Position numbers and translations under genes: made by a program. DNA of 64,000 bases from Longimicrobiales bacterium (GTDB lineage: Bacteria; Gemmatimonadota; Gemmatimonadetes; Longimicrobiales; Gaopeijiaceae). This document shows positions 22,329-49,153 of this stretch, one piece after another (the first letter of the stretch is position 1; every line of letters starts with the position of its first letter). Under the pieces are notes generated by a model. It searched no databases. It had not been told where the DNA came from and was given only the letters and a program-made list of their open reading frames with translations. The stretch lies in assembly GCA_965219445.1 (NCBI GenBank), contig CBDCNQ010000005.1, forward strand, positions 608,001 to 672,000, in the 5' to 3' direction.

Positions 22329-22550
22329 GGAGGAGGCAGCGAGGATTCTGGGGAATGTTGGCCTCGCCTCTATCGGAGGTAGGTTGAGCGCGGTGATTTC
22401 TGTGAGACGCGCCCGGGAATTGGAAACTTCCGCCGCCTCCTTGCACCAGCACCGTCCGCGCCTGCGCGGCGACCGAGAGCCCGCGAGCTGGGGGGGGCCT
22501 GGATGAGGACAATGCTGGCGGCAGGACGCCCGACCTCTCGCGAGGGTGGA

Positions 22551-27462: not shown

Positions 27463-27655
27463 CACATCGTCAACATCCGCGGCAACAGCTACCGGATGCG
27501 TCACCACACCGAACTCTCCAAAGCCCTTCACTCGCCTCCTTCGGAGTCGAGCTCTTCACACCCAAGGCCGAGGAGAAGAAAACGAAAGGAGAACACGACG
27601 TCCTAGAGGCCCGTCACCTCCCTCCGAAGTGTGACATTTTCAACCGGCGTTGACA
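27463..27655 (+). mobile_element. istB: IS21-family remnant: istB 3' end plus right end
   Basis: HIVNIRGNSYRMR...stop 27606; terminus gtgacattttcaaccggcgttgaCA abuts a clipped CRISPR repeat. Confidence 0.75.
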
Positions 27656-29856
27656 CTCAACGCCTTTCGGCATCACAGAGGTTCTCACCAGGTCGCGTCC
27701 ATTCTGGACAACGAAGACGACATGTGCTCAACGCCTTTCGGCATCACAGAGGTTCTCACTCCCCAGCGGGTGACATTGTGCCCCTGCCAGATGTGGTGCT
27801 CAACGCCTTTCGGCATCACAGAGGTTCTCACGAGCTAGGATCAAAGGGTGAGTAAAAGAGAGGCGACGTACCTTTGCGCTGAGATTTAAACCAGCGAGCC
27901 CGGGTGACAGCCCGGGGAAAGGAACGTCGCCTCATGAGAGAGGATATCGCGGGACCCCGGGGTGCGTCCAGCAGGCCGATGTGGGAGACGCTCGAGGGGA
28001 TGGTTAGGGAGAAGGCGCAGGAGTTCATCCAACAGATCATGGAGGAGGAAGAGTCACGGGAGTTGTTAGGCCGGGAGAAGTCCGAGCGCAGGAGTACGGT
28101 GGACTCGGCCGAGGGCTACCGCAACGGATATGGCAAGCCGAGGCGGTTGGCGATGAGCTCGGGCACGATCACACTCCGACGCCCTCGGGTTCGGGGCGTC
28201 GAGGAGCGGTTCGAGAGTCGGGTGCTGCCGTTGTTCGCGAGACGGACGAAGGAGCTGGGCGCTCTGCTTCCGGAGCTGTATCTGCACGGACTGGCGGAGG
28301 GAGACTTCGAGCTGGCGATGCGGGGACTGCTAGGCGAGGGGGCCCCGCTGTCGAAGTCTTCGATCCGGAGACTGCGGCGGAGTTCGAGGAATGGAGCCAG
28401 CATCGCCTGGAGGTCCGTGAGGTCGTCTACGTATGGGCGGACGGGATCTACGTGAAGGCAGGGCTCGAGCGGGACAAGGCGGCGCTGCTGGTGGTGCTGG
28501 GCGCGATGCGAGACGGGACGAAGGAGGTGTTGGCCCTGAGATCGGGCTACCGAGAGTCGGTCGAGTCCTGGTCCGAGGTGTTGCGGGATCTGAAGGCACG
28601 CGGCATCGAGGTGCCCCGGCTTCTGATGGCGGACGGTAACGCGGCGATCTGGGGCGCAGTACGGCAGGTATGGCCTGAGGCGGGCGAGCAACGGTGCTGG
28701 AACCACAAGATGAGGAACGTGCTGGACCGGCTGCCGCAGCGGGAGCAGAGCGAGGCGAAGGATCTTCTCAAGGGCCGTGGTCTACGCACCGAGGCGGTCC
28801 GAGGCTGTGAAGGCCCGCGAAGTGTTCGCCAGGCGCTACAGGCCGTGGTATCCGAAGGCGGTGGACGTACTCGAGGACGACTGGGAGCGGATGGTGGCGT
28901 TCTACGACTTCCCCGAGGACCACTGGAAGCATCTACGCACGACGAACGTGGTCGAGAGCCCGTTCGCTGCGCTACGGCTCAGGACGACGGCGGCGAAGCG
29001 ATTCAAGCGGATCGAGAGCGCTACGGCGCTGATCTGGAAGTTGCTCTTGGTGGCCGAGAAGCGGTTCCGAAGGCTCGACGCTCCTCACCTCCTCAAGGAC
29101 GTGTTTGAAGGAAGGAAGTTCGAAGACGGAAAGCCCGTCTCAACCCAACAGCGGAAGAATGCCGCCTGATACGTTTACACACCTATTGACCCAACCTCGT
29201 TCTCACAGGAATGGCGTGTCCGGTGCGCGGACCAGTTCGGGTGCTCAACGCCTTTCGGCATCACAGAGGTTCTCACACGTCGTAGTACGCGATCACCATC
29301 CCCTCGTCGAGGTGCTCAACGCCTTTCGGCATCACAGAGGTTCTCACTTTCTACTGAACGGGTTGGTTGCGTCCCCGAAGTTGTGCTCAACGCCTTTCGG
29401 CATCACAGAGGTTCTCACCGGCACCCAGCGAGGAGGTGACCGTCCAGACGGCGTGCTCAACGCCTTTCGGCATCACAGAGGTTCTCACAGGAACCGGCTC
29501 CGACGCAAGCGCCAGCGAGTCTATGTGCTCAACGCCTTTCGGCATCACAGAGGTTCTCACAAGTGAACTCGGGGCATCTCTCCGTCGGCCGTAACATCAT
29601 GTGCTCAACGCCTTTCGGCATCACAGAGGTTCTCACCTCGATCCCCGGTGCAATATGCTGGCTCAGGCTGACTAGTGCTCAACGCCTTTCGGCATCACAG
29701 AGGTTCTCACGCTGCGGGGCGGCGGCGGCAACGAGTTCATCGGTGTGTGCTCAACGCCTTTCGGCATCACAGAGGTTCTCACATAGCCGTCGTAGCACCG
29801 TCGGGTCTCCTATCTGGCGTGTGCTCAATGCCTTTCGGCATCACAGAGGTTCTCAC
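27656..29856 (-). CRISPR. CRISPR array, 12 repeats / 11 spacers (34-40 nt); repeat GTGAGAACCTCTGTGATGCCGAAAGGCGTTGAGCAC; split by IS256
   Basis: Repeats start at 27656 (clipped 3 nt), 27724, 27796, 29241, 29312, 29383, 29453, 29525, 29601, 29675, 29747, 29821 (one variant base); orientation inferred from the cas side. Confidence 0.97.
27832..29198 (+). mobile_element. IS256-family element with frameshifted transposase and 8-bp TSD GTTCTCAC
   Basis: IRL gagctaggatcaaagggtgagtaaa, IRR tttacacacctattgacccaacctc; TSD 27824-27831 and 29199-29206; transposase split over three frames. Confidence 0.93.
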
Positions 29857-30060
29857 CGCTCTCGGCTGGACATAAGCGGGGGGCGGCTTTCCGGGGTGGT
29901 TTTCATGGACCTCATCTTGTGCGGGAAGGACCCGGTCCCAATGTCCTCTAGAGGATGACGGATCTTCCCGGAATTGCTTGGACATTCGCTTGTTCACGCA
30001 CCCGAGAGCGTGTAAATGCCAGAAGACACCGTTACATAGTGTCAATCGCCACACCCTTCG
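29857..30060 (-). promoter_or_regulatory. Probable CRISPR leader
   Basis: Non-coding tract between truncated cas4-cas1 and the first repeat. Confidence 0.5.
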
Positions 30061-30895
30061 ATACCCCCCCCTGGGATGTGAGCTGGACGTTGCCGTGTAA
30101 CACCATAGAGCTCACCTGCGCGATCGGAAGGTCCGTGACGATGCCATCGAGTGCCTGGACCCTCAGACATAGCGCGGCTCTTCCGACCCGCGATCCCGGC
30201 TCGGTGACATGCACTATCTGACGGTCATCGTCTGGAGGAGCCGGTAATGACCGATGGTCGGTCGGCCTTTCCTCATCCGGCAAGCAGACGCCAGAGAGGC
30301 TGCAATGCGTGCAGAGGTTGCGGTTCTCGGCTACCGGTGGGCGCCTTGAGGACGCGCTGAGCCTCCGCGCTTCGGCGATGGCTTTCCGCACGTCGTTACG
30401 GAGGTCATCTGTAACGGCTACGTGAACCCAGGCACTATCGCGTGCGTAGTGGATGCGTGCATGCCGAACGGAGGTCTTCCGAAGGTCCTCCAGAAGCATG
30501 GCATAGGCGCCGACCTGTAGTACGTCAGACGGCCACCCAGCGAGTCCGGCTTCGGTTCGTCTAGCTCTGCCACGCTTAACCTCGACAGGGATCAGATCCT
30601 CCTTCTCCGACCGAATGAAATCGACGCGCCCTTGGAGTCCCAAGCGGGCCGAAACGACGTGCATCGAATCTTTGTGCTTGCGCTCAAGTGAGGCATGGAG
30701 TTCTCGGCCCGCGTAGACGCGGGCGTTGGCCACTCGCTGCCCTTCGACATTCTCGAGATAGAATAGGCGAGGGCAGTAGGCGAGCGCGTGAAGAGCCATC
30801 ACGGGCACCAGTTCGACCGAATCTGCCGGTGGATTTGAGCGGAGCCCCTGGACCCCACTTCCTTCCCCCTCAACCTCCTGGCGTGAGGCGGACAT
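30032..30895 (-). pseudogene. cas4-cas1: Cas4-Cas1 fusion; Cas4 complete, Cas1 truncated after about 50 aa
   Basis: YCPR, GRVD..VEVKRG, QVGAY, CTHCSLSGVC; then VTEPGSRVGR..LHGNVQLTSQ ending at a G run. Confidence 0.88.
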
Positions 30896-31493
30896 AGTCT
30901 TCCTCGTTGAACGCGCGCTCCACAAGGCTGAATCGTCGAAGCCTGGTTGCGGACGGGTCTTCACAATCGACCCAGACGGGGAGGGTGAGCGACCCAGCTT
31001 CATGCGGGTGGAGCGAGACGCCTAGTGGTGGAGCAGTACGGCAGACTGCGATCTCGTCCACCAAGAACGTGCTCTCGCCTAGCGATAGTGCGCCGTACCG
31101 GTCCACGCCCTCAGGATGCTCTAGAGCGTCCCTGACGGAGCTCGAGAGGTCATGTACCGCATCGCCTTGCCTTACTGCGATCCACGCTTCGAGTCCGAGG
31201 ATCACCTCTTGGTAGTCGGGTCGGTAGCTGGCTATTCCGTGGTGCCGACCGCCGACCGGGTCGCGCCGGAGCTTCCGAAGCACGCGCGACGACTCACGGA
31301 CACGGTCCACCATGATCGCGATCCCAGTTCCTCGGTAGTCGGAGTGCGCTCCATCCGTGACACCACAAAGCGAAAGCAGCATTCCGAACACCGTGGCGGG
31401 CGGCGGGACCGGATATGTGTCCTGGTAGTCCCTCGACAGATGCGGACGAAACGAGACGATCGGAACGGACGCCCTGACGACAAACGCGTCCAT
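30870..31493 (-). CDS. cas5: Cas5 (DevS-like)
   Basis: VSFRP..TYPVPPPATVFGMLLSL; LSLGES. Confidence 0.92.
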   Translation of the reverse strand: MDAFVVRASVPIVSFRPHLSRDYQDTYPVPPPATVFGMLLSLCGVTDGAHSDYRGTGIAIMVDRVRESSRVLRKLRRDPVGGRHHGIASYRPDYQEVILGLEAWIAVRQGDAVHDLSSSVRDALEHPEGVDRYGALSLGESTFLVDEIAVCRTAPPLGVSLHPHEAGSLTLPVWVDCEDPSATRLRRFSLVERAFNEEDYVRLTPGG

Positions 31494-31495
31494 CC

Positions 31496-32344
31496 CTACA
31501 GTCCCAGGTCGCGCCGCAGTCTTGCCTCGGCTTCGTGAAAAGCATCCTTCACGCCCTCGGTGCAGGTGACGCCCGAGGCAGCGAGACTATCCCGCAGCGT
31601 AAGAGCTGCGGGACCCCCGACCACGACTTCGCTGCCATCGATGTCCCCCGAGCGAATGCGTGACAGGAGCGAATCGGCGGTGATCGTACCAAGCTCATCC
31701 TGCTCAAAGCAGTACATGAGCCGAGGAGCCGGGTCGTGCGTCCAGCGCAGCACAATTGCGTCGGGCGAGAAATCGTAGAGATAGCGGCTGTGGTTACCTG
31801 CCACCCGGTGAAGGTCGCGAATACTCTCCAGCGCATCGATGGCGCGCGTGCAATCCTCCAGGGCTTCAGGTGTGAGGGCGAACGAGTATTGGTAGCGCGT
31901 TGCGTGAATCTCGGTCCCGTAAGGGATCGGGTTGGTGTTCCCCGACGACTGCGCGCCGACCGCTGCCGCATTGAAGACGACGTCGCCCGGCCAGGGGCGA
32001 GTGCTGAGTGCGCGGGTGATTTCCAATCGCCCGCGACGCTTCACGGTCTCCTTGTCCGGCAACATGAAGCCCAGCAGGTCGTCGTCCAGGTACGACTTCC
32101 AATCCTCAAACTTCGGGTCCCTCCACTCGCTGCCGTCGGAGGCGATGCGCCGGTTTACGGTCTTGCCTGCTTCGGTGAACGCTTCGCGAATCGCATAGCG
32201 AATCGCCTCCGCGCTCACGGTCGTGAAAAGGCCATCGTCCTTGATGACCTTTTGCAACGTGGTCACGTTGCCGGCGTTCTCGCCCCGATTGTTGGACGCG
32301 ATCCCGTGTGGTGTCAGGACGGTACCAAAAAGATGGTGGGCCAT
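31496..32344 (-). CDS. cas7: Cas7 (DevR-like)
   Basis: NNRGE..TTLQK, TVSAEAIRYAIRE, DDDLLGFM, VAGNHSRYLYDFSP. Confidence 0.93.
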   Translation of the reverse strand: MAHHLFGTVLTPHGIASNNRGENAGNVTTLQKVIKDDGLFTTVSAEAIRYAIREAFTEAGKTVNRRIASDGSEWRDPKFEDWKSYLDDDLLGFMLPDKETVKRRGRLEITRALSTRPWPGDVVFNAAAVGAQSSGNTNPIPYGTEIHATRYQYSFALTPEALEDCTRAIDALESIRDLHRVAGNHSRYLYDFSPDAIVLRWTHDPAPRLMYCFEQDELGTITADSLLSRIRSGDIDGSEVVVGGPAALTLRDSLAASGVTCTEGVKDAFHEAEARLRRDLGL

Positions 32345-32390
32345 GGTGGATCTCCGCTCCTGGTTTCAGTTCTCGCTGGTTGCAGTTGCT

Positions 32391-33959
32391 CTACTCGACG
32401 TGCCCCGCCTCTTCGCCCTCTTCCTTCTCCGCCTTACCCTGGTAGGTCACTAAGGAGAACAGTGCGAGATCCCGAGCTCGACGCCATGTGGCAGGTGAGT
32501 CGATGAATGCCCAAATAGCCTGAGCGTTTTCCCGGAGCGTTTGGCTGCCTCCGGCGTCGGCAAAAAATCCCGCGAGCGCCGTCCGCAGGGTAGAGCGGGT
32601 ATTGGATCTCGAGAGCAATCGCCGGGAGGATTCGCGAAAGTCTTCCCATCGGTCCTGCACCGATCTTGCACCGCGCTTGGCGTATTCCGCTTCCTGTCCG
32701 AACCGGCGCGCCATCGCCTCATGCATGGCATAACGGAAAAGTCGATCTAGCTCTCGATTCGCGTCCATTGGCAACTCCTCCGCGATAGCGGTCAGGGCTC
32801 TTCGTTTGTAACCGACAAGTCGGAACCAGGCTCGTTCCTCCGACTCGTTCTTTTGGCTCAATTTCTTCACTTCCTCGCGATCTTCTTTCGGGATATCGAA
32901 TAGAGAATGGTACCAGTAGCGGCCATGCGCGAGGTTGGCCGAGATCCTGCCTCGCGGGGTCGGCACTGAGATGAAGTTACCTTCTCCGTCTTTTCGGGCC
33001 CGGTAACGGTTTGGCAGGTGTCGAAGGACCGTCTCGAACTCGTCTAGTTGTTCCATTCCAGGATGCAGCCGGCAGAAGCTTGAGCGGACCCTCTGCTGCC
33101 TATTCCATGCGACACGGCCAACCCTCAGAACCTCGAGTCCCCTGAGCACGAGATGCCGCTTCGCACTTTGGGTTCGATAGGCAACCGCGACTCCAAGTCC
33201 GGCGTCCTCAAGGCTCCGAACCTCCGCTTCCTTCCAGCCGATGCGCACAAGCGGACGCACCGATGCGAACGCTGCCAGGTCAGAGACGTCAGGAACCACA
33301 ATCACCCAAGAGAACTTCTGTGCTCTGAAGAAGAAGCACCCAATCGGAGCGAAGAAGAGAGGAATGGCCTGGATGGCCGAGCCGGTCCAAGACTTCTCAC
33401 CGCCGTGTCGTGCGGTCCCACCCGGCATGATGAACTGAGCGAACTCGACCCGCGATTTCGTCTCGCCATTCTGGTCGAAGAGTTCATTCCGGAAGGCGGA
33501 GACATATTTCAGTTTCGTCTTAGGCTCCCGGAATCGGACTTCGATGGACCTTTCGTCCTCGAACTCGACTCGCTTCCGTGTCCACGTCGTCTTCGACTGA
33601 GATTTCCCGTGCTGGAGAAACGTTGAGAGGATGCCATTGTTCTCTAGCAATCGGTCCGGGTAGGCATCTCTGGCGGAACCCCGGTGAACAGCGGGGAGGT
33701 AAAGCACCCCGAGCCCTTCCTGGCTAGTCGGCTGCCGAGTCTGCCAGGCGAACTCAATAAGCTTCACGAGCGCATCGCGAGGGGGCACGTCATCGGGCCA
33801 ACGAAGCACCACGACGTCGCTAGCGAAGGATGCCTCCAGCGGGGTCAAATCGACCTCCAGCCTACTCGCGGCATAGATCGAAGCAGCCATCGCTCCGATC
33901 CCGCATCGGTCGAATGCGGTGAGGCCAGGCTCTCCAACAGACCAGGTCAGTTCTGCCAT
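32391..33959 (-). CDS. cas8: Cas8 large subunit, Myxococcus-type (DevT-like)
   Basis: Between cas3 and cas7; TFLQH, PGG..RH, FAPIGC, VVPD, ISANLA..W, RDLALFSL. Confidence 0.85.
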   Translation of the reverse strand: MAELTWSVGEPGLTAFDRCGIGAMAASIYAASRLEVDLTPLEASFASDVVVLRWPDDVPPRDALVKLIEFAWQTRQPTSQEGLGVLYLPAVHRGSARDAYPDRLLENNGILSTFLQHGKSQSKTTWTRKRVEFEDERSIEVRFREPKTKLKYVSAFRNELFDQNGETKSRVEFAQFIMPGGTARHGGEKSWTGSAIQAIPLFFAPIGCFFFRAQKFSWVIVVPDVSDLAAFASVRPLVRIGWKEAEVRSLEDAGLGVAVAYRTQSAKRHLVLRGLEVLRVGRVAWNRQQRVRSSFCRLHPGMEQLDEFETVLRHLPNRYRARKDGEGNFISVPTPRGRISANLAHGRYWYHSLFDIPKEDREEVKKLSQKNESEERAWFRLVGYKRRALTAIAEELPMDANRELDRLFRYAMHEAMARRFGQEAEYAKRGARSVQDRWEDFRESSRRLLSRSNTRSTLRTALAGFFADAGGSQTLRENAQAIWAFIDSPATWRRARDLALFSLVTYQGKAEKEEGEEAGHVE

Positions 33960-36181
33960 CGTGCCCCCTTCATCGGGTCGTAGTGGATGCTCCCCTCCGG
34001 CGCCACAGCCATACCACGAAGACGGGGCCAGCGCCTGATGTCGTGGCTCTTGGGCACAAGCATCGGGATGGTGAGTCGGATCAGTTCGGCCCGCGTGACG
34101 CCGTTCCACGAGCTTGGAAGGTCCTCTTCTCGAACCACGGGGAACGAAACCGAGCCATCGCGCAGCATTCCAGGCTCGGTACCGGCAAGGTCATCCGGGC
34201 TGAGCAAGGGCATAAGGCGCTCCGCGTAGGAACCGTCCTGCATCCCGGCAAGCACATCCGCGAGGTTGCGCTGAGACAACTCCTGGTCATCCAGAGGCTC
34301 GAGCTCCTCCGCTGCCCGCAACAAGGCCTCCTTGTCGTACGGCTGCGGGTCCGGCGGCTCGACGATCAGCGCGGGGCAAGCTTTGTCCGGCTCTCGACAA
34401 CGACGGTTCAGGCGACCCAGCCGCTGCACGAGTGACGGGAATGGGGCCAACTCTGAGATCAAGAGGGTGGCGCTGATGTCGAGCGACATCTCGCACACCT
34501 GCGTGGCAGCCACGAATGCCGGGCCGGGGCTCCTAAAGAGCTCCAGCACTTCATCTTGGATGCGCACTCGGTCTTCGTACTTGAAACGACTGTGGTAGAG
34601 CCGGGCCCGCGGACCCCACTCTGGACCCAGACGGTCGAACGCCGCGGTCGCACGCGCGACCGTATTCGCGACATACAAGACTCTGCCCCCGCTCTTGCGG
34701 GCCTGTTCCATACGCCCGGGAACCTCTTCCGAGCGTACCCGAGCGACCCGGTAGCGCACCGCATTCTCCATGGCGGGTTCTCCCCGGATTGGCTCCAGCG
34801 CCTTGCCACACGCTTGTTCGATGGCAGCCCTGCGTGCATCGGAAAGGCTCGCGGTCATCACGAGGCAGGACGCTTGGGTGCAGCGAAGAAACGCGAGGAA
34901 CGCGCCGAAGAGGTGCTCGTCGTAGCTGTGCACCTCATCGAACACGAATGCTGACTGCGCGAAGACAGGGATGGCGGCAAGAGCGGGTCGCCAGCACGCG
35001 AGAAGTGAGAGCACCGAATCCACCGTACACGCCACGACCTTCTTTCCCCAGAGGTCCAACACATCGGCGACCCAAAGCGAATCCCGTTCATCATCCGCCG
35101 CACCGTTATCGAGGATCTGTTCGATGTCCGCCGATGCGCGGCTGTGCATGAGCGCACGCTCAAGGTCAGTCTGGGCGAGGAGGTAGTCTTGAAACCCGGC
35201 TGACGTCGTGCCAGTCGTGGGATAGCAGAACACGAGTCTCTGCCCGGCTGCGTGCCGCCGCCCCCACATGTAGGCGGCAAGAGTCTTTCCGTTGCCACAC
35301 CCGGCCTCGACGAGCGTCACCCGCTCGTCGGACGCCGCCACGATCTCCTGAAACGGGTAGGGTGAATGGTCTCCCAAGCGTGCATCCACGATCTGGTTGA
35401 GTTCACTAACAGTCAGTCCCTCGGAAAGCACGTGTTTGGCCCACCCGGCGGCACTGTCTCTCCCTCTGATCCGAGCCGAGCCGACCGTGTCCGCCGCGAT
35501 CAGAACCGCCTTGCAACAGGCAGCAAGCGGCACAAGCCGGCTCGGCACATCTTGCGGTTCCGCGCGCACAGCACCCTGCACGAACATGATGTATTCGAAG
35601 AGCAGATCCTCCCACACGGCTCTGGGGAGGTTGAGTCTGTCAGGCTCGGGAGTTGTCTCGGCCCCCGTGCAACTCGCGAGTTGCTGCCACAGGCGAGAGA
35701 GAGAGGGATGGTCGAGATACACGACCTCGTCACGCGGAGTCCGCGCCTCGGGTGCTGAAGGTGATGCGCGAACGTGATGACCCATCACAGCGGTGAGCAC
35801 AGCCGCCCTGGCACGAGTGTCGCGAAGCATGTGCCCGATCCAAGACCCTAGACCGTTAGGCTCCATGCACACGGCGACGGAAAGCGCCTCGTGCCTGAAC
35901 GGATGAATCTCGCGCACATCCTCCTGCATCTGGCGCTGGAATGATCCTCCGGCCTTCCCTACATCGTGTATCAGCGCGGCAATGCGGAGCAGCGATCCGA
36001 GTCGGGCCTCGTCCGTGTCGTCCAGCCCGAAGAACACCGCAAGCTGGGAACCGGTCGCGTCGACGATCGCTTCCGCGGAATCCGCCACTTCGACGCAGTG
36101 GTCGGTGATTGTGACAGTCTCTCCCGACACCGTGGGACGCGACTTGGCAAGGAGCACCGCGAAAGGATGGATCTCAGGCAT
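33947..36181 (-). CDS. cas3: Cas3 HD nuclease-helicase
   Basis: DH, HDVGK, GCGNGKT, DEVH, TAS, YHSRF, QRLGRLNR. Confidence 0.95.
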   Translation of the reverse strand: MPEIHPFAVLLAKSRPTVSGETVTITDHCVEVADSAEAIVDATGSQLAVFFGLDDTDEARLGSLLRIAALIHDVGKAGGSFQRQMQEDVREIHPFRHEALSVAVCMEPNGLGSWIGHMLRDTRARAAVLTAVMGHHVRASPSAPEARTPRDEVVYLDHPSLSRLWQQLASCTGAETTPEPDRLNLPRAVWEDLLFEYIMFVQGAVRAEPQDVPSRLVPLAACCKAVLIAADTVGSARIRGRDSAAGWAKHVLSEGLTVSELNQIVDARLGDHSPYPFQEIVAASDERVTLVEAGCGNGKTLAAYMWGRRHAAGQRLVFCYPTTGTTSAGFQDYLLAQTDLERALMHSRASADIEQILDNGAADDERDSLWVADVLDLWGKKVVACTVDSVLSLLACWRPALAAIPVFAQSAFVFDEVHSYDEHLFGAFLAFLRCTQASCLVMTASLSDARRAAIEQACGKALEPIRGEPAMENAVRYRVARVRSEEVPGRMEQARKSGGRVLYVANTVARATAAFDRLGPEWGPRARLYHSRFKYEDRVRIQDEVLELFRSPGPAFVAATQVCEMSLDISATLLISELAPFPSLVQRLGRLNRRCREPDKACPALIVEPPDPQPYDKEALLRAAEELEPLDDQELSQRNLADVLAGMQDGSYAERLMPLLSPDDLAGTEPGMLRDGSVSFPVVREEDLPSSWNGVTRAELIRLTIPMLVPKSHDIRRWPRLRGMAVAPEGSIHYDPMKGARWQN

Positions 36182-36785
36182 GCTTCGGACGAATCGGCAC
36201 GAAGACCCCTGCGCCCATCTTCCGCTTCCCACCAAGCCCGCATTCTTGGATGAGCACCGAATCCGCTTCGCTCAGACCCGACAGTCGCACCGAATAGCCA
36301 ACGACCGTGTAACCCTTCACATCCATTACGCGACGCTTCTTCACCCTTACTCGAGAGTCCTGCACACTCAGGACTTCGAGTTGACGCTTGCACGCCTCCG
36401 CAAATTGGTCCGACGCATCCTCAAACCCCTTGATCGTGACTAAACGCGAGAACAGGTGCGAGGCTGGCCGAAGGGGACGAATCTCGGGCACTCCCACTTG
36501 GTAGGCCCGTCCGCCAATGTCCAGTTGTTTCCCCGCCAGTGGGATGGCCAGTGCGATTTCGTCGGTCGGCAACCGCATCACTAGGCGGCTGCCATCGGAA
36601 AGGGCGAGCGCGCCGTTCCCCAAGGGTGTGCCGCGAACCGGATGGACACCCCAGTCAGAAGCCTCGTGGAGGGCCGCAAGGCGCCTTGAGATCGCGGCAA
36701 AAAGGAGGTAGCCGTGATCTACGGGTAGCTCGGTTCCCCTGAGCCGGAACGCTAGGTCAACGAATTGCGGCACGTGATTCACCAA
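36174..36785 (-). CDS. cas6: Cas6 (Myxococcus-type)
   Basis: LPVDHGYLL; C-terminal GLGGKRKMGAGVF. Confidence 0.92.
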   Translation of the reverse strand: MVNHVPQFVDLAFRLRGTELPVDHGYLLFAAISRRLAALHEASDWGVHPVRGTPLGNGALALSDGSRLVMRLPTDEIALAIPLAGKQLDIGGRAYQVGVPEIRPLRPASHLFSRLVTIKGFEDASDQFAEACKRQLEVLSVQDSRVRVKKRRVMDVKGYTVVGYSVRLSGLSEADSVLIQECGLGGKRKMGAGVFVPIRPKHA

Positions 36786-40602: not shown

Positions 40603-41911
40603 CGTAGTATGATCGTCCATTTCATCCCATGCTGTCCCATAATGTACCATAACTCGGGTTATATCAACGCTATACAGCACGTATGGACCGTGTTCACAGA
40701 CTCCCTCTTGCGCCGATTCGTACCGTGTTGTACCATGGTGTATCCGTCGATATGTGATACACAAGTAGGACACCATACATGCGTAAACGACCGCTTACGG
40801 CTGTCTTCGTGGCACGGGTGACGACGCCGGGACGCTACGGCGACGGGGGGCGCGGCGGACTCGGGCTGTACCTCCGCGTCCACCGAATGAAGTCGGGGCG
40901 CGTCTCCAAGTCCTGGGGCCAGCGCGTTCGAGCGGGAGGGAAGCCCACCAATCTCGGACTGGGCTCGTATCCGGTCGTGACGCTCAAGGAAGCGAGGGAG
41001 GAGGCGCTGGAGAACAGGCGCGCGCTCCATTGGGGCCACGATCCGAGAGCCGCCGGGGTTCCCACCTTCGAGGCGGCCGTCGAGAAGGTGATCGTGATCC
41101 ACTCGCCGACCTGGAAGAGCCCTTCCCGCATCGCCGGACAGTGGCGGCAGACGCTGAGGGACTACGCCCATCCGCGCATCGGCCGAAAGCGCGTGAGCGA
41201 GGTCGCGACGGCCGACGTGCTCGCGATCCTACAGCCCATCTGGTCAAGCAAGCCCGCAGCGGCGAGGGTCGTGCGTCAGCGGATCGGCGCGGTGATGAAG
41301 TGGGCCGTCGCGAAGGGCTACCGGTCGGACAACCCGGCGGGTGACGCCATCGCCGCCGCGCTGCCGCGGAACGGCAACGCCACCCGGCATCACCAGGCGC
41401 TCCCGCATGGCGAGGTGTCGGCGGCGCTGGTCAAGGTCCGCAACTCGGGGTCCCATGCCGGTGTCCGGCTGGCGCTCGAGTTCATGGTCCTGACCGCGAC
41501 TCGCTCGAACGAGGTCCGGGGCGCGACGTGGGACGAGTTCGATCACGATGTCTGGACCATTCCCGCCAGCCGCATGAAGGCGAAGCGCGAGCACCGGGTT
41601 CCCCTGTCGAGGCGGGCCTTGGAGATCCTTGAGGAAGCCCGGAAGCGCCACGACGACGGCGAGATCGTCTTCCGGGGCGCGAAGGGAGGAGGCATCAACG
41701 CCTCGCTGTTCAGCGGCTTGCTCCGGGGTCTCGGCATCGAGGGAACGCCTCACGGGATGAGGTCCTCGTTCCGCGACTGGTGTTCGGAGACGGGCGTGGC
41801 GCGCGAGGTGGCCGAAGCGGCGCTGGCCCATGTCGTGAAGAACAAGGTCGAGGCCGCCTACGCCCGTTCCGACCTGCTGGACCGGAGGCGCGAGGTCATG
41901 GAGGCCTGGGC
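40580..41911 (+). repeat. Long direct repeat, copy 2
   Basis: Matches 1-1332. Confidence 0.95.
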
Positions 41912-41963
41912 CGACTATCTCGCTGGCAAGCGTCGAGACCCGGAGGCCGAACCGATCCGTTGA
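40779..41963 (+). CDS. P4-like tyrosine integrase (second copy)
   Basis: Same as 200-1384 except within the last 16 aa. Confidence 0.93.
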   Translation: MRKRPLTAVFVARVTTPGRYGDGGRGGLGLYLRVHRMKSGRVSKSWGQRVRAGGKPTNLGLGSYPVVTLKEAREEALENRRALHWGHDPRAAGVPTFEAAVEKVIVIHSPTWKSPSRIAGQWRQTLRDYAHPRIGRKRVSEVATADVLAILQPIWSSKPAAARVVRQRIGAVMKWAVAKGYRSDNPAGDAIAAALPRNGNATRHHQALPHGEVSAALVKVRNSGSHAGVRLALEFMVLTATRSNEVRGATWDEFDHDVWTIPASRMKAKREHRVPLSRRALEILEEARKRHDDGEIVFRGAKGGGINASLFSGLLRGLGIEGTPHGMRSSFRDWCSETGVAREVAEAALAHVVKNKVEAAYARSDLLDRRREVMEAWADYLAGKRRDPEAEPIR

Positions 41964-42601: not shown

Positions 42602-44035
42602 TGAGGTGGTCCCGGTTTTTTGGACAGGTCGTTAAGGTGGATTCCAGAGCGGAAGAGGAGGCACCGAGATGGCCAGGAAGAGACGGCGGTTCACGGCGGA
42701 GTTCAAGGCACGGGTAGCGCTCGAGGCGCTGCGCGAGCGGGACAGCGTGCAGGCGATCGCGGCGCGGCACGAGCTTCATCCGAACCAGGTGACCACATGG
42801 AAGCGGCAGCTGCTCGAAGGGCTGCCGGAGGTGTTTGCCGGGGGCGCGGGCCGCAAGGCCGCCCTGGAGCACGAGGCGAAGATCCGGGACCTGCACGCCA
42901 AGATCGGGGAGCTCACGGTCGAGCGGGATTTTTTTCGGCGCGGGCTCAAGCGCTGAGCCGGGCGGAGCGGGGGCGGATGATCGAGCGGGACGGACCGCTG
43001 AGTCTTTCGAGGCAGTGCGCGCTGCTGGGCGTGAGCCGGTCGTCGCAGTACTACCGGCCGAAGGGGGAGAGCGCCGAGGACCTGGCGCTCATGCGGCGCA
43101 TGGACGGGCTCCACACGGCGTATCCGTTCTACGGGAGCCGGCAGCTGATGCGGCATCTGCGCCGCGAGGGCGTTGCCGCGGGCCGGCACCGGATCCGGCG
43201 GCTCATGCGCCTGATGGGGATGGAGGCGACCTACCGGCGGCCGCGCACGAGCGTGGCGAGTCCGGAGCACCGGGTCTTCCCCTATCTGCTGCGGGGCCTC
43301 ACGATCTCGCGGGCGGACCACGTGTGGTGCGCGGACATCACCTATGTCCCGGTGACGCAAGGGTTTTTCTACCTGGTGGCTGTGATGGACTGGGCGACCC
43401 GGCACGTGCTCGCCTGGCGGCTGTCGAACACGATGGACGCGTCGTTCTGCGTCCAGGCGCTGGACGACGCGCTGGGCTGGAGGGCTCCGGAGATCCTCAA
43501 TACGGATCAGGGCTCCCAGTTCACCAGCGAGGCGTTCGCCGACCGGGTGCTGGGTGCGGGCGTGCGCTTCTCGATGGACGGCCGGGGCCGCTTCCTCGAC
43601 AACATCTTCATCGAGCGGCTGTGGCGGTCGCTGAAGTACGAGGCGGTGTACCTCTACGAGCTCCGGGACGGGCCCGACGCCCAACGCATCATCGGCTCGT
43701 GGATCGACTTCTACAACGAAGCACGCCCGCACTCGTCGCTGGGCGGACGGACGCCGGGCGAGGCCTATCGCGAAGGCGCGGAGGTGTGGTGAGGACGATC
43801 CGGCGCGACGCCACCCAACCGGCGCAACGACGCCTGCGATCGTCACGGGATCTACGCGCGGCCCTTCCCTCCGTCTTCCCATCGGGAACCAGTCCCGACG
43901 GGAAGGCGGAGGTTATATTCAAACCGGGCTCGAAGGAGAACACCCAGCCTCAAGCGGGACCCCGAGGGCTTTGGAGACCATCGGAATCCACCTTAAGATC
44001 GCCCTCGGACTGTCCAACGAAGTAGGACCACCTCA
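42602..44035 (+). mobile_element. IS3-family element (orfA 42669-42956; orfB about 42930-43792; -1 frameshift at T run)
   Basis: TG..CA inverted ends tgaggtggtcc / ggaccacctca; WCADITY, NTDQGSQF, DNIFIERLWRSLKYE; no flanking TSD. Confidence 0.95.
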
Positions 44036-44805: not shown

Positions 44806-45001
44806 TCAGCTCCAGCGCCCGCGTAACGTCTCGGCGAGTGTCCTGTAGTCCTGGGCCAAGTGCGTCACTTGCGCGCTGAGCTGTTCGACCTGCCGCCGCA
44901 AGGTCTCGACCTGCGCGGCGTGCTGCCGCTGCGCCTGCTCGTACTGCGCGGACGACGCCCGCAAGGCCTTCGTCAACTGCCGTTCTAACATACGCGGTCA
45001 T
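44806..45001 (-). pseudogene. MbeD-like protein with a 4-bp insertion near the start
   Basis: Removing 4 nt near 44990 gives MTALERQLTKAL and also restores the relaxase frame. Confidence 0.55.
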
Positions 45002-45010
45002 AGAGCTCCT

Positions 45011-45502
45011 TCACTCGTTCGACAGCTTCACGGCCGGCCGAGTGTCCACGGTCCAAGGCGGATAGGCAAGCGCGCCGGCCGGCAGCACCACGAATCGCTC
45101 CCCCTCGTCCCGAAGCGTGATCCTCCAGGTGGTCGCCTCGAGCCGCTCCAGGGTCCGGCGGGCCTCCTCGATCTCCAGGTCGAGGGCGGCCACCGTCTGG
45201 ATCCGGGCTTGGATGCGTGTCGACAGCCATTGCACCGTCGCCCAGCTCCCGCCGCAGATGCCGAGCCAGAGGCTCAGGCCGACGACCAGCGGCCGGAGCC
45301 AGGCCTTGAGCAGGAGCGTGTGCATCCGCCCGGTCGCCACCGCCGTATCGCGTTCGATGGTACGCAGCGCGTTGTTCGCAACGCGCCTGGAGTTCGCGCC
45401 GAGCCGCTCGAGCTCGCTCGTCGTCAGTTCCTCGATCGCCTGGCGTTCGCTCTCCAGCCGTCTCCGCAACCGCGCGGTCAAGTCGTTCGCGTTGGAAGTC
45501 AT
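45011..45502 (-). CDS. MbeB-like mobilisation protein overlapping the relaxase in another frame
   Basis: Coiled coil plus one TM segment (WLRPLVVGLSLWLGICGGSW); ColE1-like layout. Confidence 0.55.
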   Translation of the reverse strand: MTSNANDLTARLRRRLESERQAIEELTTSELERLGANSRRVANNALRTIERDTAVATGRMHTLLLKAWLRPLVVGLSLWLGICGGSWATVQWLSTRIQARIQTVAALDLEIEEARRTLERLEATTWRITLRDEGERFVVLPAGALAYPPWTVDTRPAVKLSNE

Positions 45503-46201
45503 GTGCGTACAGCTCTCCTTTCAGCCGCCACCGGTCTCCGGTCCTTGGATCAAGGGCCGTCAGGTAGTCCCTGCCCTGGCGCGGCACCTCCAGGCCCGCC
45601 TCCTGCAAGGCTGCGACGACATCGGCCTGGTTCTGTACGGTGCCGTGCTCGACACGCTGGAGCAGGTAGTCCCGGATCAGGTCGCGGGGGGAGGGCTCGA
45701 GCGCGAGGCCGGCCCGCAGCTGGGCCGCCTCGACATATGCGCGGTGCCCGGGTTGCTGCACCCGTGCCCGCGCCGGGTCATCCGGCCGGCTCCAGCCGTG
45801 TGCGGCGTTGAAGGCGTCGCGCAGCGGACCGAACGTCTTCTGCCAGCCCGGCGGCGCGATGTTGAGGCTCCGGCCGGTCTCGAGGTCGCAATCCGCCAAC
45901 GAAGACCCCGGCCAAGGACCTAGTGACGTCGCCGGCGCGACCGCCAAGCGGCATCAATTGGTCGCGGGAAAAGTATACCCTCTGGCGTTATAGTTCGGCG
46001 CCTTGCCGTCACGAGGGGAGGGGCCCTAGCCTGTGCTGCCGAGCTAGGATCAAAGGCATCATAGGGGCATGGCGACCGCTACCGGTACCGATCAGCAGCG
46101 AAGCAGCCCGAAGACGAAGAGGCGTTCTCCTCCGGGAACGGGTGCGCGTTCATCATTATTCGCGCAAGCAAGCAACCCAACCCGTCCTACCCAAGAGGAG
46201 G

Positions 46202-47263
46202 ATGCCCATGGAGAGGTATATCGGACTCGACGCACACGCGTCGAGCTGCACGCTGGGGATTGTAGGCCCCAGCGGCAAGCGCTTGGGCTCGCAGGTGGTG
46301 GAGACGAACGCGCGGGCGCTGATCGAGGTGCTGCGAGGGATTCCGAGGAACCGGCACTTATGCCTGGAAGAAGGGACGCTGTCGGGGTGGCTGTACGAGG
46401 TGCTGAAGCCGCACGTGGAGGAGCTGACGGTGGCGGGGGTCGGCAAGAGCCGGGGCCCGAAGACCGACAAGCTGGACGCGTTTGCCCTGGCGGAGAAGCT
46501 GCGGATCGGATCACTGGAGACGACGGTCTACAAGAACCGGGGCCAGTTCAGGCGGCTGGGGGAACGGGCGAAGAGCTACGACTTCTTGGTCGGCGACACG
46601 GTGCGGGTGAAGAACCGGCTCAAGAGCGTGCTGCGCTCGAGAGGAGTGGCCTACGGCGCGGGGCGCTCGGTCTACTTAAAGCGCGACCGGGAGGAGTGGT
46701 TGGCCAAGCTGCCGGAAGCGAGCAGGACGACGGCCGGGTTGCTGTACGAGGAGCACGACGCACTCGTGGCATTGAGGGCGAAGGCCGAGAAGGCGTTGCT
46801 GGCGGAAGCACGCAAGCATCGAGAGTGGCATGTGCTGAAGACGTGCCCGGGTCTGGGTCCGATCCGGACGGCGGAGCTCCTGCCGGTGGTGGTGACGCCG
46901 TACCGGTTCCAGAGCCGGAGCAGGTTCTGGGCGTACTGCGGACTGGGCGTCGTGATGCGGAGCTCGTCGGACTGGGTGCGGGGTCCGGGTGGGCGGTGGG
47001 TAAGGGAACCGGTACAGCAGACGCGGGGGCTGAATCGGAACTTCAACCACACGCTGAAGCGTGTGTTCAAGGGCGCAGCGACGACGGTGATCGGTCGGGC
47101 CGAGGACGAGCCCTTGTACCGCCACTACGAGCGACTCCTGGAGGGGGGCACGAAGCCGAATCTGGCGAAGCTGACGATCGCGCGTCAGCTCGCCTCGATC
47201 GTGCTAGCGGTGTGGCGCACGGGCGAAGCGTACGACCCCAAGAGACTGGAAGCGACGGAGTAA
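46202..47263 (+). CDS. IS110-family DEDD recombinase/transposase
   Basis: IGLDAH, LEEG, KTDKLDA, PGLGP, YCGL..RSS. Confidence 0.93.
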   Translation: MPMERYIGLDAHASSCTLGIVGPSGKRLGSQVVETNARALIEVLRGIPRNRHLCLEEGTLSGWLYEVLKPHVEELTVAGVGKSRGPKTDKLDAFALAEKLRIGSLETTVYKNRGQFRRLGERAKSYDFLVGDTVRVKNRLKSVLRSRGVAYGAGRSVYLKRDREEWLAKLPEASRTTAGLLYEEHDALVALRAKAEKALLAEARKHREWHVLKTCPGLGPIRTAELLPVVVTPYRFQSRSRFWAYCGLGVVMRSSSDWVRGPGGRWVREPVQQTRGLNRNFNHTLKRVFKGAATTVIGRAEDEPLYRHYERLLEGGTKPNLAKLTIARQLASIVLAVWRTGEAYDPKRLEATE

Positions 47264-47340
47264 ACCGGCCTGGGATCGGCGAGCGTGGGGTCGAAAGCGG
47301 TCACAACATGGGGTCCGACGAAACGGAAGCGAACCGGTTA

Positions 47341-47475
47341 CAGGGGACAGCATCCATACACACCGTGGGCCGGGGCAGAGAGCCCAAGCCCCCACTCAAA
47401 GGCTATGCACCCCTGGAGAGCCGAACGAAGCGATGGGCCACAGAGTCCCAGATAGAAGGATGGTTCCCGCTCCAG
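47341..47475 (+). ncRNA. Predicted bridge/seek RNA core (target loop and donor loop)
   Basis: CAGGGG/CCCCTG stem encloses TACACACC and TCAAAGG; a second stem encloses GATG and ATAGAAGG. Confidence 0.8.
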
Positions 47476-47748
47476 AGCGGAGAACGCGACGGCTGTGAAC
47501 GTCTTCCGGACTGCGATGCGGACCCTGCGAGCGCACCCCTCCCCACCCTGAGTCGTCGACCGGGCAATCCAAACCATGCGGACGCCGACGGTCAAAAAAT
47601 GAGCCGACGGCGCGTGGGGAAGGTGCGTCTTGACCGCCAGCCCCATAGAAGGGTGTGTAAAAAAAGAGGCGACGTACCTTTCCGCTAGGTAGTAAGAAGT
47701 TAACCAGCGAATCCCGGGTGAGCGCCCGGGGGAAAGGAACGATGCCTC

Positions 47749-48993
47749 GTGAGGAAGAATATGGTGGGACCCGAGAGTGAGTCCAGCACGCCGACGTGGG
47801 AGTGCTTGGAAGCGCTGGTTCGTGAGAAGGCCCAGGAGATGGTCCAGCGGATTCTGGAGGAGGAAGTGACGGAGTTGCTCGGCCGGGAGAAGTCGGAGCG
47901 GAAGACGGTCGTAGACCCGGCGCCAGGCTACCGCAACGGCTACGGCAAGGCTCGGCGGCTGGCGATGAGCTCGGGCACGATCATGCTCCGACGGCCCCGG
48001 GTTCGAGGCATTGAGGAGCGGTTCGAGAGTCGGGTGTTGCCGTTGTTCGCACGACGGACGAAGGAGGTGGGTGCTCTGCTTCCGGAGCTGTATCTGCACG
48101 GGCTGGCGGAGGGAGACTTCGAGCTGGCGATGCGGGGCCTGCTGGGCGAGGGGGCCCCGTTGTCGAAGTCTTCGATTTGGCGGCTGCGGGCGGGATGGAC
48201 AAGGAAATTCGAGGAATGGTCGAAGCGCTCGCTGGCCGACCGTGAGGTCGTCTACGTCTGGGCGGACGGGATCTACGTGAAGGCGGGGCTCGAGCGGGAC
48301 AAGGCAGCGCTGCTGGTGGTTCTCGGTGCGATGCGAGATGGTACGAAGGAGGTGTTGGCCCTGAGATCGGGCTACCGAGAGTCGGTCGAGTCCTGGTCCG
48401 AGGTGTTGCGGGATCTGAAGGCACGCGGCATCGAGGCGCCCCGGCTTTTGATGGCGGACGGCAACGCGGCGATCTGGGGCGCAGTACGGCAGGTATGGCC
48501 TGAGGCGGGCGAGCAACGGTGCTGGAACCACAAGATGAGGAACGTGCTGGACCGGCTGCCTCAGCGGGAGCAGAGCGAGGCGAAGGACCTTCTCAGGACC
48601 GTGGTCTACGCACCGAGGCGGTCCGAGGCGCTGAAGGCCCGTGAGGCGTTCGCCAGGCGCTACAGACCGTGGTATCCGAAGGCGGTGGATGTACTCGAGG
48701 ACGACTGGGAGCGGATGGTGGCGTTCTACGACTTCCCCGAGGACCACTGGAAGCATCTACGCACGACGAACGTGGTCGAGAGCCCCTTTGCCGCAGTACG
48801 GCTCAGGACAACGGCGGCGAAGCGCTTCAAGCGGGTCGAGAGCGCTACGGCGCTGATCTGGAAGCTGCTCTTGGTGGCGGAGAAGCGCTTCAGAAGGCTC
48901 GACGCTCCTCACCTCCTCAAGGACGTATTTGAAGGAAGAAAGTTCGAAGACGGAAAGCCCGTCTCAACCCAACAGCGGAAAAACGCCGCCTGA
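47749..48993 (+). CDS. IS256-family transposase, intact
   Basis: YRNGY, YVWADG, MADG, QRCWNH, RTTNVVES. Confidence 0.95.
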   Translation: MRKNMVGPESESSTPTWECLEALVREKAQEMVQRILEEEVTELLGREKSERKTVVDPAPGYRNGYGKARRLAMSSGTIMLRRPRVRGIEERFESRVLPLFARRTKEVGALLPELYLHGLAEGDFELAMRGLLGEGAPLSKSSIWRLRAGWTRKFEEWSKRSLADREVVYVWADGIYVKAGLERDKAALLVVLGAMRDGTKEVLALRSGYRESVESWSEVLRDLKARGIEAPRLLMADGNAAIWGAVRQVWPEAGEQRCWNHKMRNVLDRLPQREQSEAKDLLRTVVYAPRRSEALKAREAFARRYRPWYPKAVDVLEDDWERMVAFYDFPEDHWKHLRTTNVVESPFAAVRLRTTAAKRFKRVESATALIWKLLLVAEKRFRRLDAPHLLKDVFEGRKFEDGKPVSTQQRKNAA

Positions 48994-49153
48994 AACATTT
49001 ACACACCTATTGACCCAACCTCTTTCTCGTCATAGATGAAATCTCGTGACGAGCTGTGTCTCATGCCATGAAAAAAAACGGTGCCTGTCGGTCACGGCGA
49101 GCGCTCCTCCATTCCTCGTGATCTGCCTCGAAGGCAGCGGCGATCACGAGCGC

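What the first reader, a model, noticed from the sequence alone, without database searches (positions are those of the whole stretch)
46041..47661. IS1111-type element whose guide RNA appears programmed for the terminal inverted repeat of an IS256
Seen: removing 46057-47652 rebuilds the IS256 IRL gagctaggaTCAAAGGGTGTGTAaa. The 3' non-coding end has a stem (47341-47415) enclosing TCAAAGG (47396-47402, same as the left target half) and TACACACC (47357-47364, reverse complement of the right half). A second stem holds ATAGAAGG (47452-47459), the left half of the circle junction, and GATG (47432-47435), complementary to its right half. Known: IS110/IS1111 use bridge/seek RNAs, and IS4321/IS5075 target Tn21-family TIRs. 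Inference: an RNA-guided parasite of IS256 that would disable the host IS end. The other IS256 (27832) has GGTGAGTA, one mismatch to the guide, and is unoccupied.
Basis: partly seen in the sequence, partly recalled or inferred. Interest (0 to 1): 0.82.

Follow-up and report, generated by a model that had tools for sequence, protein, structure and literature searches.

The report
RNA-guided IS parasite of IS256 ends
A small jumping gene sits at one exact base inside the left end of another jumping gene (IS256) at 23 of its 24 places in this genome, and it likely finds that spot with a built-in guide RNA whose letters change in step with the landing site across relatives; the mechanism is known, but here every perfect site is filled and only altered, likely resistant, IS256 ends stay free.

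Summary
Confirmed, with two corrections. An IS1111-type element (46056-47651, 351-aa IS110 recombinase) splits the 25-bp left repeat (IRL) of an IS256. 23 of its 24 left junctions in this genome are at that base; the 24th matches the guide, not IS256. Its 3' RNA forms two conserved loops (12 of 26 pairs compensatory), and target-loop arms track the flanks across relatives (0 of 20,000 permutations). Corrections: the crossover core is AG (IS621's CT read on the other strand), and the GATG donor pairing is not supported. No intact target is empty here; all five free IRLs are altered within the 14-mer. In G061 a core-changed IS256 allele has spread to 8 empty copies. But four other genomes holding this guide keep intact empty ends (45 in one), so filling is not universal. 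The IS256 guide arose twice on the recombinase tree. That insertion disables IS256 is unproven: a half-IRL junction of the related ISCth4 still integrates in vitro. RNA guidance and TIR targeting (IS4321) are known; I found no IS256 target in print. The scan noted this element before on other DNA of this and other genomes.

The parts
46041..46055 (+). Outer 15 bp of the IS256 IRL: left target half, AG core at 46054-46055, and a predicted -10 box (TAGGAT, 46045-46050) of the IS256 circle-junction promoter
   Evidence: promoter by analogy with ISCth4/IS256 (PMC7780238), inferred
46056..47651 (+). IS1111-type element, 1596 bp, inserted without duplication other than the 2-bp core
   Evidence: boundary
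46056..46074 (+). Left end: predicted handshake bases GC, predicted -10 CATCAT (46057-46062), imperfect sub-terminal repeat (10 of 13 bases match the right end, counted by eye)
46208..47263 (+). IS110-family DEDD recombinase, 351 aa (D8, E54/55, D87, D90; serine run 252-254)
   Evidence: PF01548 and PF02371 above cut-off; NF033542 112 bits, below its 140 cut-off; residues located by motif, roles inferred
47341..47415 (+). Predicted target-binding loop of the bridge/seek RNA
47357..47366 (+). 5' arm TACACACC-GT: complementary to the right target half GGTGTGTA, then the core
47394..47403 (+). 3' arm ACTCAA-AG-GC: same letters as the left target half and core, then the predicted handshake GC
47416..47468 (+). 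Predicted donor-binding loop: 3' arm ATAGA-AG-GA (47452-47460) equals the element's right end; 5' arm more likely GAAGC (47427-47431) than GATG
47630..47651 (+). Right end: predicted -35 TTGACC (17 bp from CATCAT in a circle), sub-terminal repeat, second AG core
   Evidence: circle not observed
47652..47661 (+). Inner 10 bp of the IS256 IRL (right target half; TGTAAA sub-terminal motif)
   Evidence: motif in PMC7780238
47749..48993 (+). IS256-family transposase, 414 aa, intact
   Evidence: PF00872, NF033543 295 bits
48998..49022 (+). IS256 IRR, never occupied (29 exact copies of its 14-mer, all free); outward TTGACC at 49010-49015
27832..29198 (+). Second, frameshifted IS256 variant with an unoccupied GGTGAGTA end, inside a CRISPR array with an 8-bp duplication

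Best explanation
An IS1111-type element sits at one fixed base of the IS256 left repeat, and it likely gets there by bridge/seek-RNA-guided recombination, its target loop spelling that repeat. Shown: the site, the copy number, the conserved two-loop structure and the covariation of arms with flanks. Inferred from IS621/ISEc11: the element forms a circle whose joined ends make a TTGACC-17-CATCAT promoter; the RNA binds the recombinase; the target loop pairs both strands of (GA)TCAAAG|GGTGTGTA and the donor loop the circle junction; strands are exchanged at the AG core, which is IS621's CT core on the opposite strand, with the GC after the core in the 3' arm acting as handshake to the element's first two bases. 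Likely consequence (about 0.6): the insertion cuts the host's TGTAAA binding half and transposase gene off from the tip and from the junction -10 box, slowing IS256, so that IS256 ends changed at or beside the core are resistant and can keep spreading (about 0.55); some of those changes may be the recombinase's own repair footprints.
For: 23 of 24 left ends follow the IRL half; 21 of 25 right-end hits run straight into the inner half, 1 more does so across an intron-like insert. Hosts from 80% to 100% identical are occupied. The one off-target copy (C2:336726, ACTCAAAG|GTGTGAC) matches the 3' arm 8 of 8, better than IS256 does (6 of 8), and has no IS256; off-targets in G267 and G061 also read AG|GTGTG. 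0 of 29 IRRs, which share the right half only, are occupied. Covariation over 75 distinct rows: left 4.53 of 6 vs 2.87 permuted (38 rows), right 6.34 of 8 vs 4.20 (38 rows, best of two registers), 0 of 20,000; one row per guide 4.23 vs 1.88 (13) and 6.23 vs 3.75 (22). Arm position 11 is T in 72 of 75 and position 10 is C in 47 of 75, as for IS621's CT core (PMC11208158). Handshake letter equals the element's first base in 38 of 38 rows, though only 2 are not G. 54 of 55 pairs of elements in identical hosts differ (median 12 SNPs; 11 of 14 changed codons silent), favouring separate insertions. G000: 0 intact empty 14-mers, 5 of 5 free IRLs altered, 4 of them otherwise identical to an occupied host. 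G061: 5 occupied, 11 free full IRLs of which 10 are core-changed; the 8-copy TCAAATGG allele has 8-9 bp duplications in 5 of 7 and an open transposase frame in 7 of 7 that could be checked.
Against: No experiment; no RNA or circle seen. Intact empty targets coexist with this guide in G007 (5), G329 (5), G267 (1) and G063/G331 (45, beside one intact-looking element). Rows that do not fit: L122 has the IS256 guide but a GGATAG flank (2 of 6), L164 1 of 6, L059 3 of 6 and 2 of 8, L039 and L035 right flanks 1 and 2 of 8. The register of the 5' arm slips by one base among relatives and the test allowed two registers. In G267 guide and target both differ at one position in 3 copies but not to complementary letters. 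ISCth4 half-TIR junctions still integrate, so the host may not be disabled. Relatives are not independent, so the permutation figures overstate.
Confidence: 0.85

Rival explanations
1. Hitch-hiking: one or a few insertions were amplified because IS256 transposase moves the 3-kb composite as a unit, so the element is a passenger rather than a disabling parasite.
For: 7 of 19 occupied hosts with a findable IRR keep their own 8-9 bp duplication; ISCth4 needs only bp 1-14 of the left TIR at a junction; all 5 occupied G061 copies share an AG|AGTG form that is never found empty; among four G061 copies host and element distances ranked alike.
Against: 54 of 55 element pairs in identical G000 hosts differ; hosts of several lineages are occupied; the G061 congruence broke with a fifth copy (L284 has L038's element but a host differing at several columns) and hosts are mosaic; off-target copies show the element moves by itself. 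Gene conversion among copies could still hide some composite moves.
Confidence: 0.12
2. The altered free ends are unselected: repair footprints of the recombinase, old alleles or assembly errors, with no arms race.
For: In G000 each altered end is a single copy; TCGAAG carries the donor's base in register and TCAGAAG reads like flank plus the element's right end; GGTGAG also occurs in G062; TCAATAAG in G061 equals that genome's IRR letters; the assemblies show homopolymer indels.
Against: Three G000 hosts differ from occupied hosts only inside the 14-mer out of about 1,370 bp, which errors would not do; the G061 core-changed allele reached 8 sites with duplications and open frames while no exact target is free. 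Footprints and selection are not exclusive.
Confidence: 0.35
3. Targeting is by protein or DNA context (recruitment by IS256 transposase or an end structure) and the RNA match is incidental.
For: Only the left end is used, and intact sites stay empty in several genomes.
Against: Arms covary with flanks across unrelated targets; the off-target copy follows the guide and has no IS256; both arms by chance 1 of 20,000.
Confidence: 0.03
4. The cell benefits and keeps the element as a brake on IS256 bursts (domesticated control).
For: All intact ends are filled in G000 and G061; IS256 has hit this window's CRISPR array and copies have swapped flanks (10 of 28 left flanks match another copy's right flank).
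Against: The element is multi-copy, mobile and patchy (2 of 12 genomes in the genus); it lengthens each repeat to 3 kb; nothing tested shows a fixed, single, conserved locus.
Confidence: 0.08

Closest known systems
IS4321 / IS5075 (IS1111 group; Partridge and Hall 2003, seen only as a reference title and as one sentence in PMC3589745; the paper was not held)
   Same: IS1111-type element inserting at one position in the terminal inverted repeat of a DDE transposable element.
   Different: Target is the 25-bp left repeat of an IS256, not Tn21-family repeats; one end only; sequence kinship to IS4321 not tested.
ISEc11, ISKpn4, ISPa11, ISXne4 seekRNA systems (PMC11187229; passages, text parts 2-3, section 13)
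   Same: 3' non-coding RNA, top-strand match 5' of bottom-strand match, junction promoter, no duplication, natural reprogramming in relatives.
   Different: Different target; here a second loop matching the donor end covaries, and dozens of natural reprogrammings can be read.
IS621 bridge RNA (PMC11208160, PMC11208158, PMC13626964; passages)
   Same: Two internal loops for target and donor, 2-bp core with conserved second base, handshake dinucleotide after the core.
   Different: RNA lies after the gene; the mapping fits when the DNA is read on the opposite strand (AG = CT), my inference, not stated in the passages I read; donor 5' arm register unresolved.
ISEc21 (IS110 group; PMC11187229, passages)
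   Same: RNA-guided insertion into another IS.
   Different: ISEc21 hits the DDE codons of IS3-family transposase genes and has an upstream RNA.
ISCth4 / IS256 (PMC7780238, passages)
   Same: Host has TGTAAA sub-terminal motifs, 8-9 bp duplications, and -35/-10 boxes split between the ends.
   Different: No element inserted in its TIR is described in the passages seen.

Membership tests
IS110 family | DEDD RuvC-like domain plus C-terminal PF02371 domain | tested here: met
   PF01548 39.7 bits (cut-off 29), PF02371 32.4 (21.3); NF033542 112 bits, under its 140 cut-off
IS110 family | Catalytic serine in an SG/TG motif | tested here: inconclusive
   MRSSSD at 250-255 has serines but D where G is usual; not aligned to IS621
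IS110 family | Site- and orientation-specific insertion with no duplication beyond a short core | tested here: met
IS1111 group | Sub-terminal inverted repeats of 7-17 bp | tested here: met
   imperfect, 10 of 13 bases, a few bases in from each end (counted by eye)
IS1111 group | Long non-coding region after the gene, short one before | tested here: met
   388 bp vs 152 bp
IS1111 group | Top-strand guide 5' of bottom-strand guide | tested here: met
   47357-47364 then 47394-47401; covariation
IS1111 group | Circular intermediate with junction promoter | tested here: inconclusive
   TTGACC-17-CATCAT would form; no such joint in the genome or in contigs of 8 runs; contigs drop rare forms
IS1111 group | Transposase falls in the IS1111 clade of ISfinder elements | not tested
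   no reference set used; 351 aa is at the upper edge of the 330-350 range given in PMC11187229
Bridge/seek RNA systems | RNA is made, binds the recombinase and is needed for movement | not testable with these tools
   the one RNA run gave a contig over 46291-46576 only; no Rfam match
Bridge/seek RNA systems | Donor loop matches both halves of the circle junction | tested here: inconclusive
   3' arm tracks the right end (ATAGAAG, ATAGGAG, CTAGGAG, CTAGAAG, ATAGAAC); 5' arm cannot be tested, donor left end is nearly invariant
TIR-targeting IS (IS4321 habit) | Single position inside another element's terminal repeat | tested here: met
   23 of 24 in G000; same base in G007, G061, G063, G064, G267, G329 and L123
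IS256 family (host) | Mutator-type DDE transposase, TGTAAA in both repeats, 8-9 bp duplication | tested here: met

The most novel reading that the evidence does not exclude
A readable RNA-guided arms race between two insertion sequences: a bridge-RNA clade that mostly targets attC-like sites was reprogrammed twice to the IS256 left end, fills every perfect end in some genomes, and selects IS256 alleles changed at the 2-bp core that then resume spreading, with the recombinase's own repair footprints supplying some of the resistant ends.
Probability: 0.4. Interest if true: 0.72.

Novelty: new member of a known kind. Interest (0 to 1): 0.5.

Why it matters
The mechanism and the habit of targeting another element's end are known, so this is not a new kind of system. 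Its value is as an unusually legible natural data set: one compact recombinase clade with dozens of natural guide/target pairs, a core and handshake that map onto IS621, on- and off-target sites, and candidate resistant targets. It makes two open questions testable: whether IS1111-type RNAs follow the IS621 core/handshake rules in mirror image, and whether RNA-guided IS-on-IS insertion actually restrains the host element and selects escape alleles.

Tried and rejected
Composite co-divergence in G061: looked supported with four copies, failed with five. Hyper-parasite idea for G209's 77% relative, whose guide resembles the element's own left end: rejected, its sites are GCCATCATAG|GAGGGTTATGCG, attC-like by recalled consensus, and not in an IS110 end. 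Escape as a general rule: rejected, several genomes keep intact empty ends. Link between altered ends and rearranged flanks: 3 of 3 same-variant altered ends lack their own duplication, but so do about two thirds of occupied ones; not significant. Circle junctions: none listed in contigs of 8 runs; RNA run X20 holds a small share and shows nothing on the RNA region. Rfam: no match. CRISPR spacers: 0 of 10 match element or host. One search returned zero because my gap length was wrong (known positives missed); replaced. One search's tblastn used a wrong frame for the recombinase; corrected. My automatic end finder and donor-arm parser failed and were not used. The 64-row careful tree did not finish (quick tree only). 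Literature: searches listed no paper on an IS110/IS1111 element targeting IS256 ends; 'IS256' had 0 occurrences in PMC11208160, PMC11187229 and 10.64898/2026.08.14.744561. ISfinder, the target tables behind PMC11187229 and all supplements were not read and may record such a target.

Full report
Observation. The window holds an intact IS256 (46041-49022; transposase PF00872, NF033543 295 bits) whose left repeat is split by a 1596-bp element with an IS110-family recombinase (46208-47263; PF01548 + PF02371). The rebuilt repeat GAGCTAGGATCAAAGGGTGTGTAAA is the true free end: its 19-mer core is in 14 of 401 related genomes and absent from G000. Near-identical elements come from records titled Longimicrobiales (Gemmatimonadota) MAGs.

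Copies in this genome. BLAST of the ends gave 25 left hits, one a short 83% relative; of the other 24, 23 follow the IRL half and one (C2:336726) does not. Of 25 right hits, 21 run into the inner IRL half, one does so across a group II intron-like insert, one is the off-target copy, one is a partial tandem duplication and one is truncated. The off-target site ACTCAAAG|GTGTGAC matches the 3' arm at 8 of 8 bases, against 6 of 8 for IS256. No exact 14-bp target is empty; the five free IRLs read TCAGAAGGG, TCGAAGGG, TCAAGGG, TCAGAGGG and GGTGAGTA; 29 IRR 14-mers are all free. Four of the five free hosts are identical to an occupied host outside the target. Among 11 elements in identical hosts 54 of 55 pairs differ, median 12 SNPs, 11 of 14 changed codons silent, so most insertions look separate, though copies are mosaic.

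The RNA. Alone, the 3' end folds no better than shuffles (z -1.18). An alignment of 46 relatives (of 52 non-redundant candidates; I left out L031 and L047 as near-copies and L061, L087, L066, L056 and L092, and added the window) gives two stems each with an internal loop; 12 of 26 pairs show compensatory change, 96.1% of cells pair vs 84.5% in shuffles and at most 55% in slid controls (related sequences inflate the shuffle test). From 187 loci, after dropping 15 duplicates, those under 44% identity and those where the loop was not parsed, 87 remained, 75 distinct. Left arm vs left flank: 4.53 of 6 vs 2.87 permuted (38 rows); right arm vs right flank: 6.34 of 8 vs 4.20 (38 rows, best of two registers); 0 of 20,000 each; the gap persists with one row per guide. 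Misfits are L122, L164, L059, L140 (fits a third register) and the rearranged right ends of L035 and L039. L039 (95% identical) has the arm ATCACTAG and sits in an IRR-type end; G209's 77% relative has CATCATAG/TAGCCCCC and sits in CAT[C/G]ATAG|GAGGGTTA.

Mechanism. The crossover core is AG, making the element 46056-47651. Read on the other strand this is the CT core of IS621, whose T is nearly invariant and C less so (PMC11208158, passages); here the matching arm positions are T in 72 of 75 and C in 47 of 75. The next arm letter equals the element's first base in 38 of 38 rows (36 G, 2 A), as a handshake guide would; this rests on two informative rows. The first base right of the core is G in 30 of 38 rows, as the donor-loop handshake G would favour. 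The donor loop's 3' arm tracks the right end across relatives; its 5' arm is unresolved, with conserved GAAGC a better candidate than GATG. The joined ends would give TTGACC-17-CATCAT. These steps are inferred from IS621 and ISEc11; no circle or RNA was seen. One-base-slipped off-targets and ends that re-entered the element's own gene or RNA region (C5:1612737, L035, L281) fit reported half-match activity (10.64898/2026.08.31.748434; abstract and section 8 read).

Effect on IS256. The insertion falls between bp 15 and 16 of 25. In ISCth4 the transposase reads bp 7-11 and 14-25, and a junction promoter forms from both ends with a 5-6 bp spacer (PMC7780238, passages). Here IRR TTGACC and IRL TAGGAT would be 17 bp apart with a 6-bp spacer, and the insertion sits five bases after that -10, so a composite circle would be expected to transcribe the parasite first (inference). 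But the same paper shows junctions with only bp 1-14 of the left TIR still integrate, so slowing is likelier than a full block, and hitch-hiking is not excluded.

Other genomes. G061: 5 occupied, 1 off-target, 11 free full IRLs (8 TCAAATGG, 2 TCAATAAG, 1 diverged TCACAGGG), none exact; the 8-copy allele has 8-9 bp duplications in 5 of 7 and open frames in 7 of 7 checked. G064: 2 occupied, 2 altered free among 4 hits. Against saturation: G007 4 complete occupied, 5 intact 14-mers free; G329 6 elements, 5 intact free; G267 4 occupied, 1 intact free; G063 (same genome as G331) one intact-looking element and 45 intact free ends, 27 inspected singly; G062 (same as G279) another guide and 7 intact free ends.

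Origin. On a 31-protein tree the IS256-end guides fall in two places, the 95-100% cluster and L122/L123 (69-70%), each among GGATAG-guided relatives; one clade is rejected (p-AU 1e-66; I had seen the quick tree first). L123 sits at the same base of an IS256 about 76% identical to the others. Convergence or an old swap of the loop are both possible. The GGATAG|GAAATCCAAC sites resemble attC R'' by recalled consensus; not tested.

Comparison and verdict. Works like IS621/ISEc11; shares the habit of IS4321/IS5075 (title only) and ISEc21. Eight literature searches listed no IS256-end target; ISfinder and supplements were not seen. The scan's notes hold 16 findings with these words in at least 3 genomes; they are not independent support. 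New member of a known kind; interest 0.5, carried by the saturation, candidate resistant alleles, double origin and readable core/handshake rules.

Noticed in passing
window 27653-29856 and 30032-36785: CRISPR array of 12 repeats (36 bp) interrupted by the second IS256 with an 8-bp duplication of repeat sequence, beside type I cas genes (Cas4, DevR/Cas7, Cas3, Cas6). No spacer matches either element.
   Followed up: partly
G000 C5:1023334-1023423 (L294 2835-2924); G061 C1:2029691-2029748 (L295): Stand-alone pieces holding only the donor-binding loop, 86-89% identical, without recombinase or target loop, in different surroundings; both also appear as loose ends in contigs of runs X2, X5, X9 and X11. 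Remnants or free RNAs; ISPpu9 has separate ssr9 copies (PMC12288879, abstract in listing).
   Followed up: partly
G000 C4:1169767-1171669: A 1.9-kb insert with group II intron-like ends (by recalled consensus) sits in the inner IRL half three bases after the IS1111 element: three mobile elements nested in one 25-bp repeat.
   Followed up: no
window 46033-46040 and 49023-49030; genome-wide: The window's IS256 has no duplication of its own; its left 8-mer is the right flank of C4:199262 and its right 8-mer the left flank of C4:326810. 10 of 28 left flanks match another copy's right flank, pointing to rearrangements between copies.
   Followed up: partly
G000 C5:1612737-1613245; L035; L281: Partial tandem duplications where the right end joins at an AG core inside the element's own gene or RNA region.
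   Followed up: partly
G005 C1:448761-489098 and 2209163-2222451 (L006): A 40%-identical relative with 15 matches, many clustered, inserted at GGTCTAAC sites that look like integron attC ends.
   Followed up: no
G267 (L274, L276, L278): Three copies with the arm AACCAAAG sit in IRLs reading GGAACAAAG, while the copy with AATCAAAG sits in GGATCAAAG: guide and target differ at the same position but not to matching letters.
   Followed up: partly
window 22503-23774, 40779-41963, 42620-43792, 44985-45947: Two phage-type integrase genes, an IS3-family element and a broken mobilisation-like frame without Pfam hit around the locus: an island rich in mobile DNA.
   Followed up: no
L203 (G063 C15): IS256 left end with a tandem duplication of part of the IRL that includes the target.
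   Followed up: no
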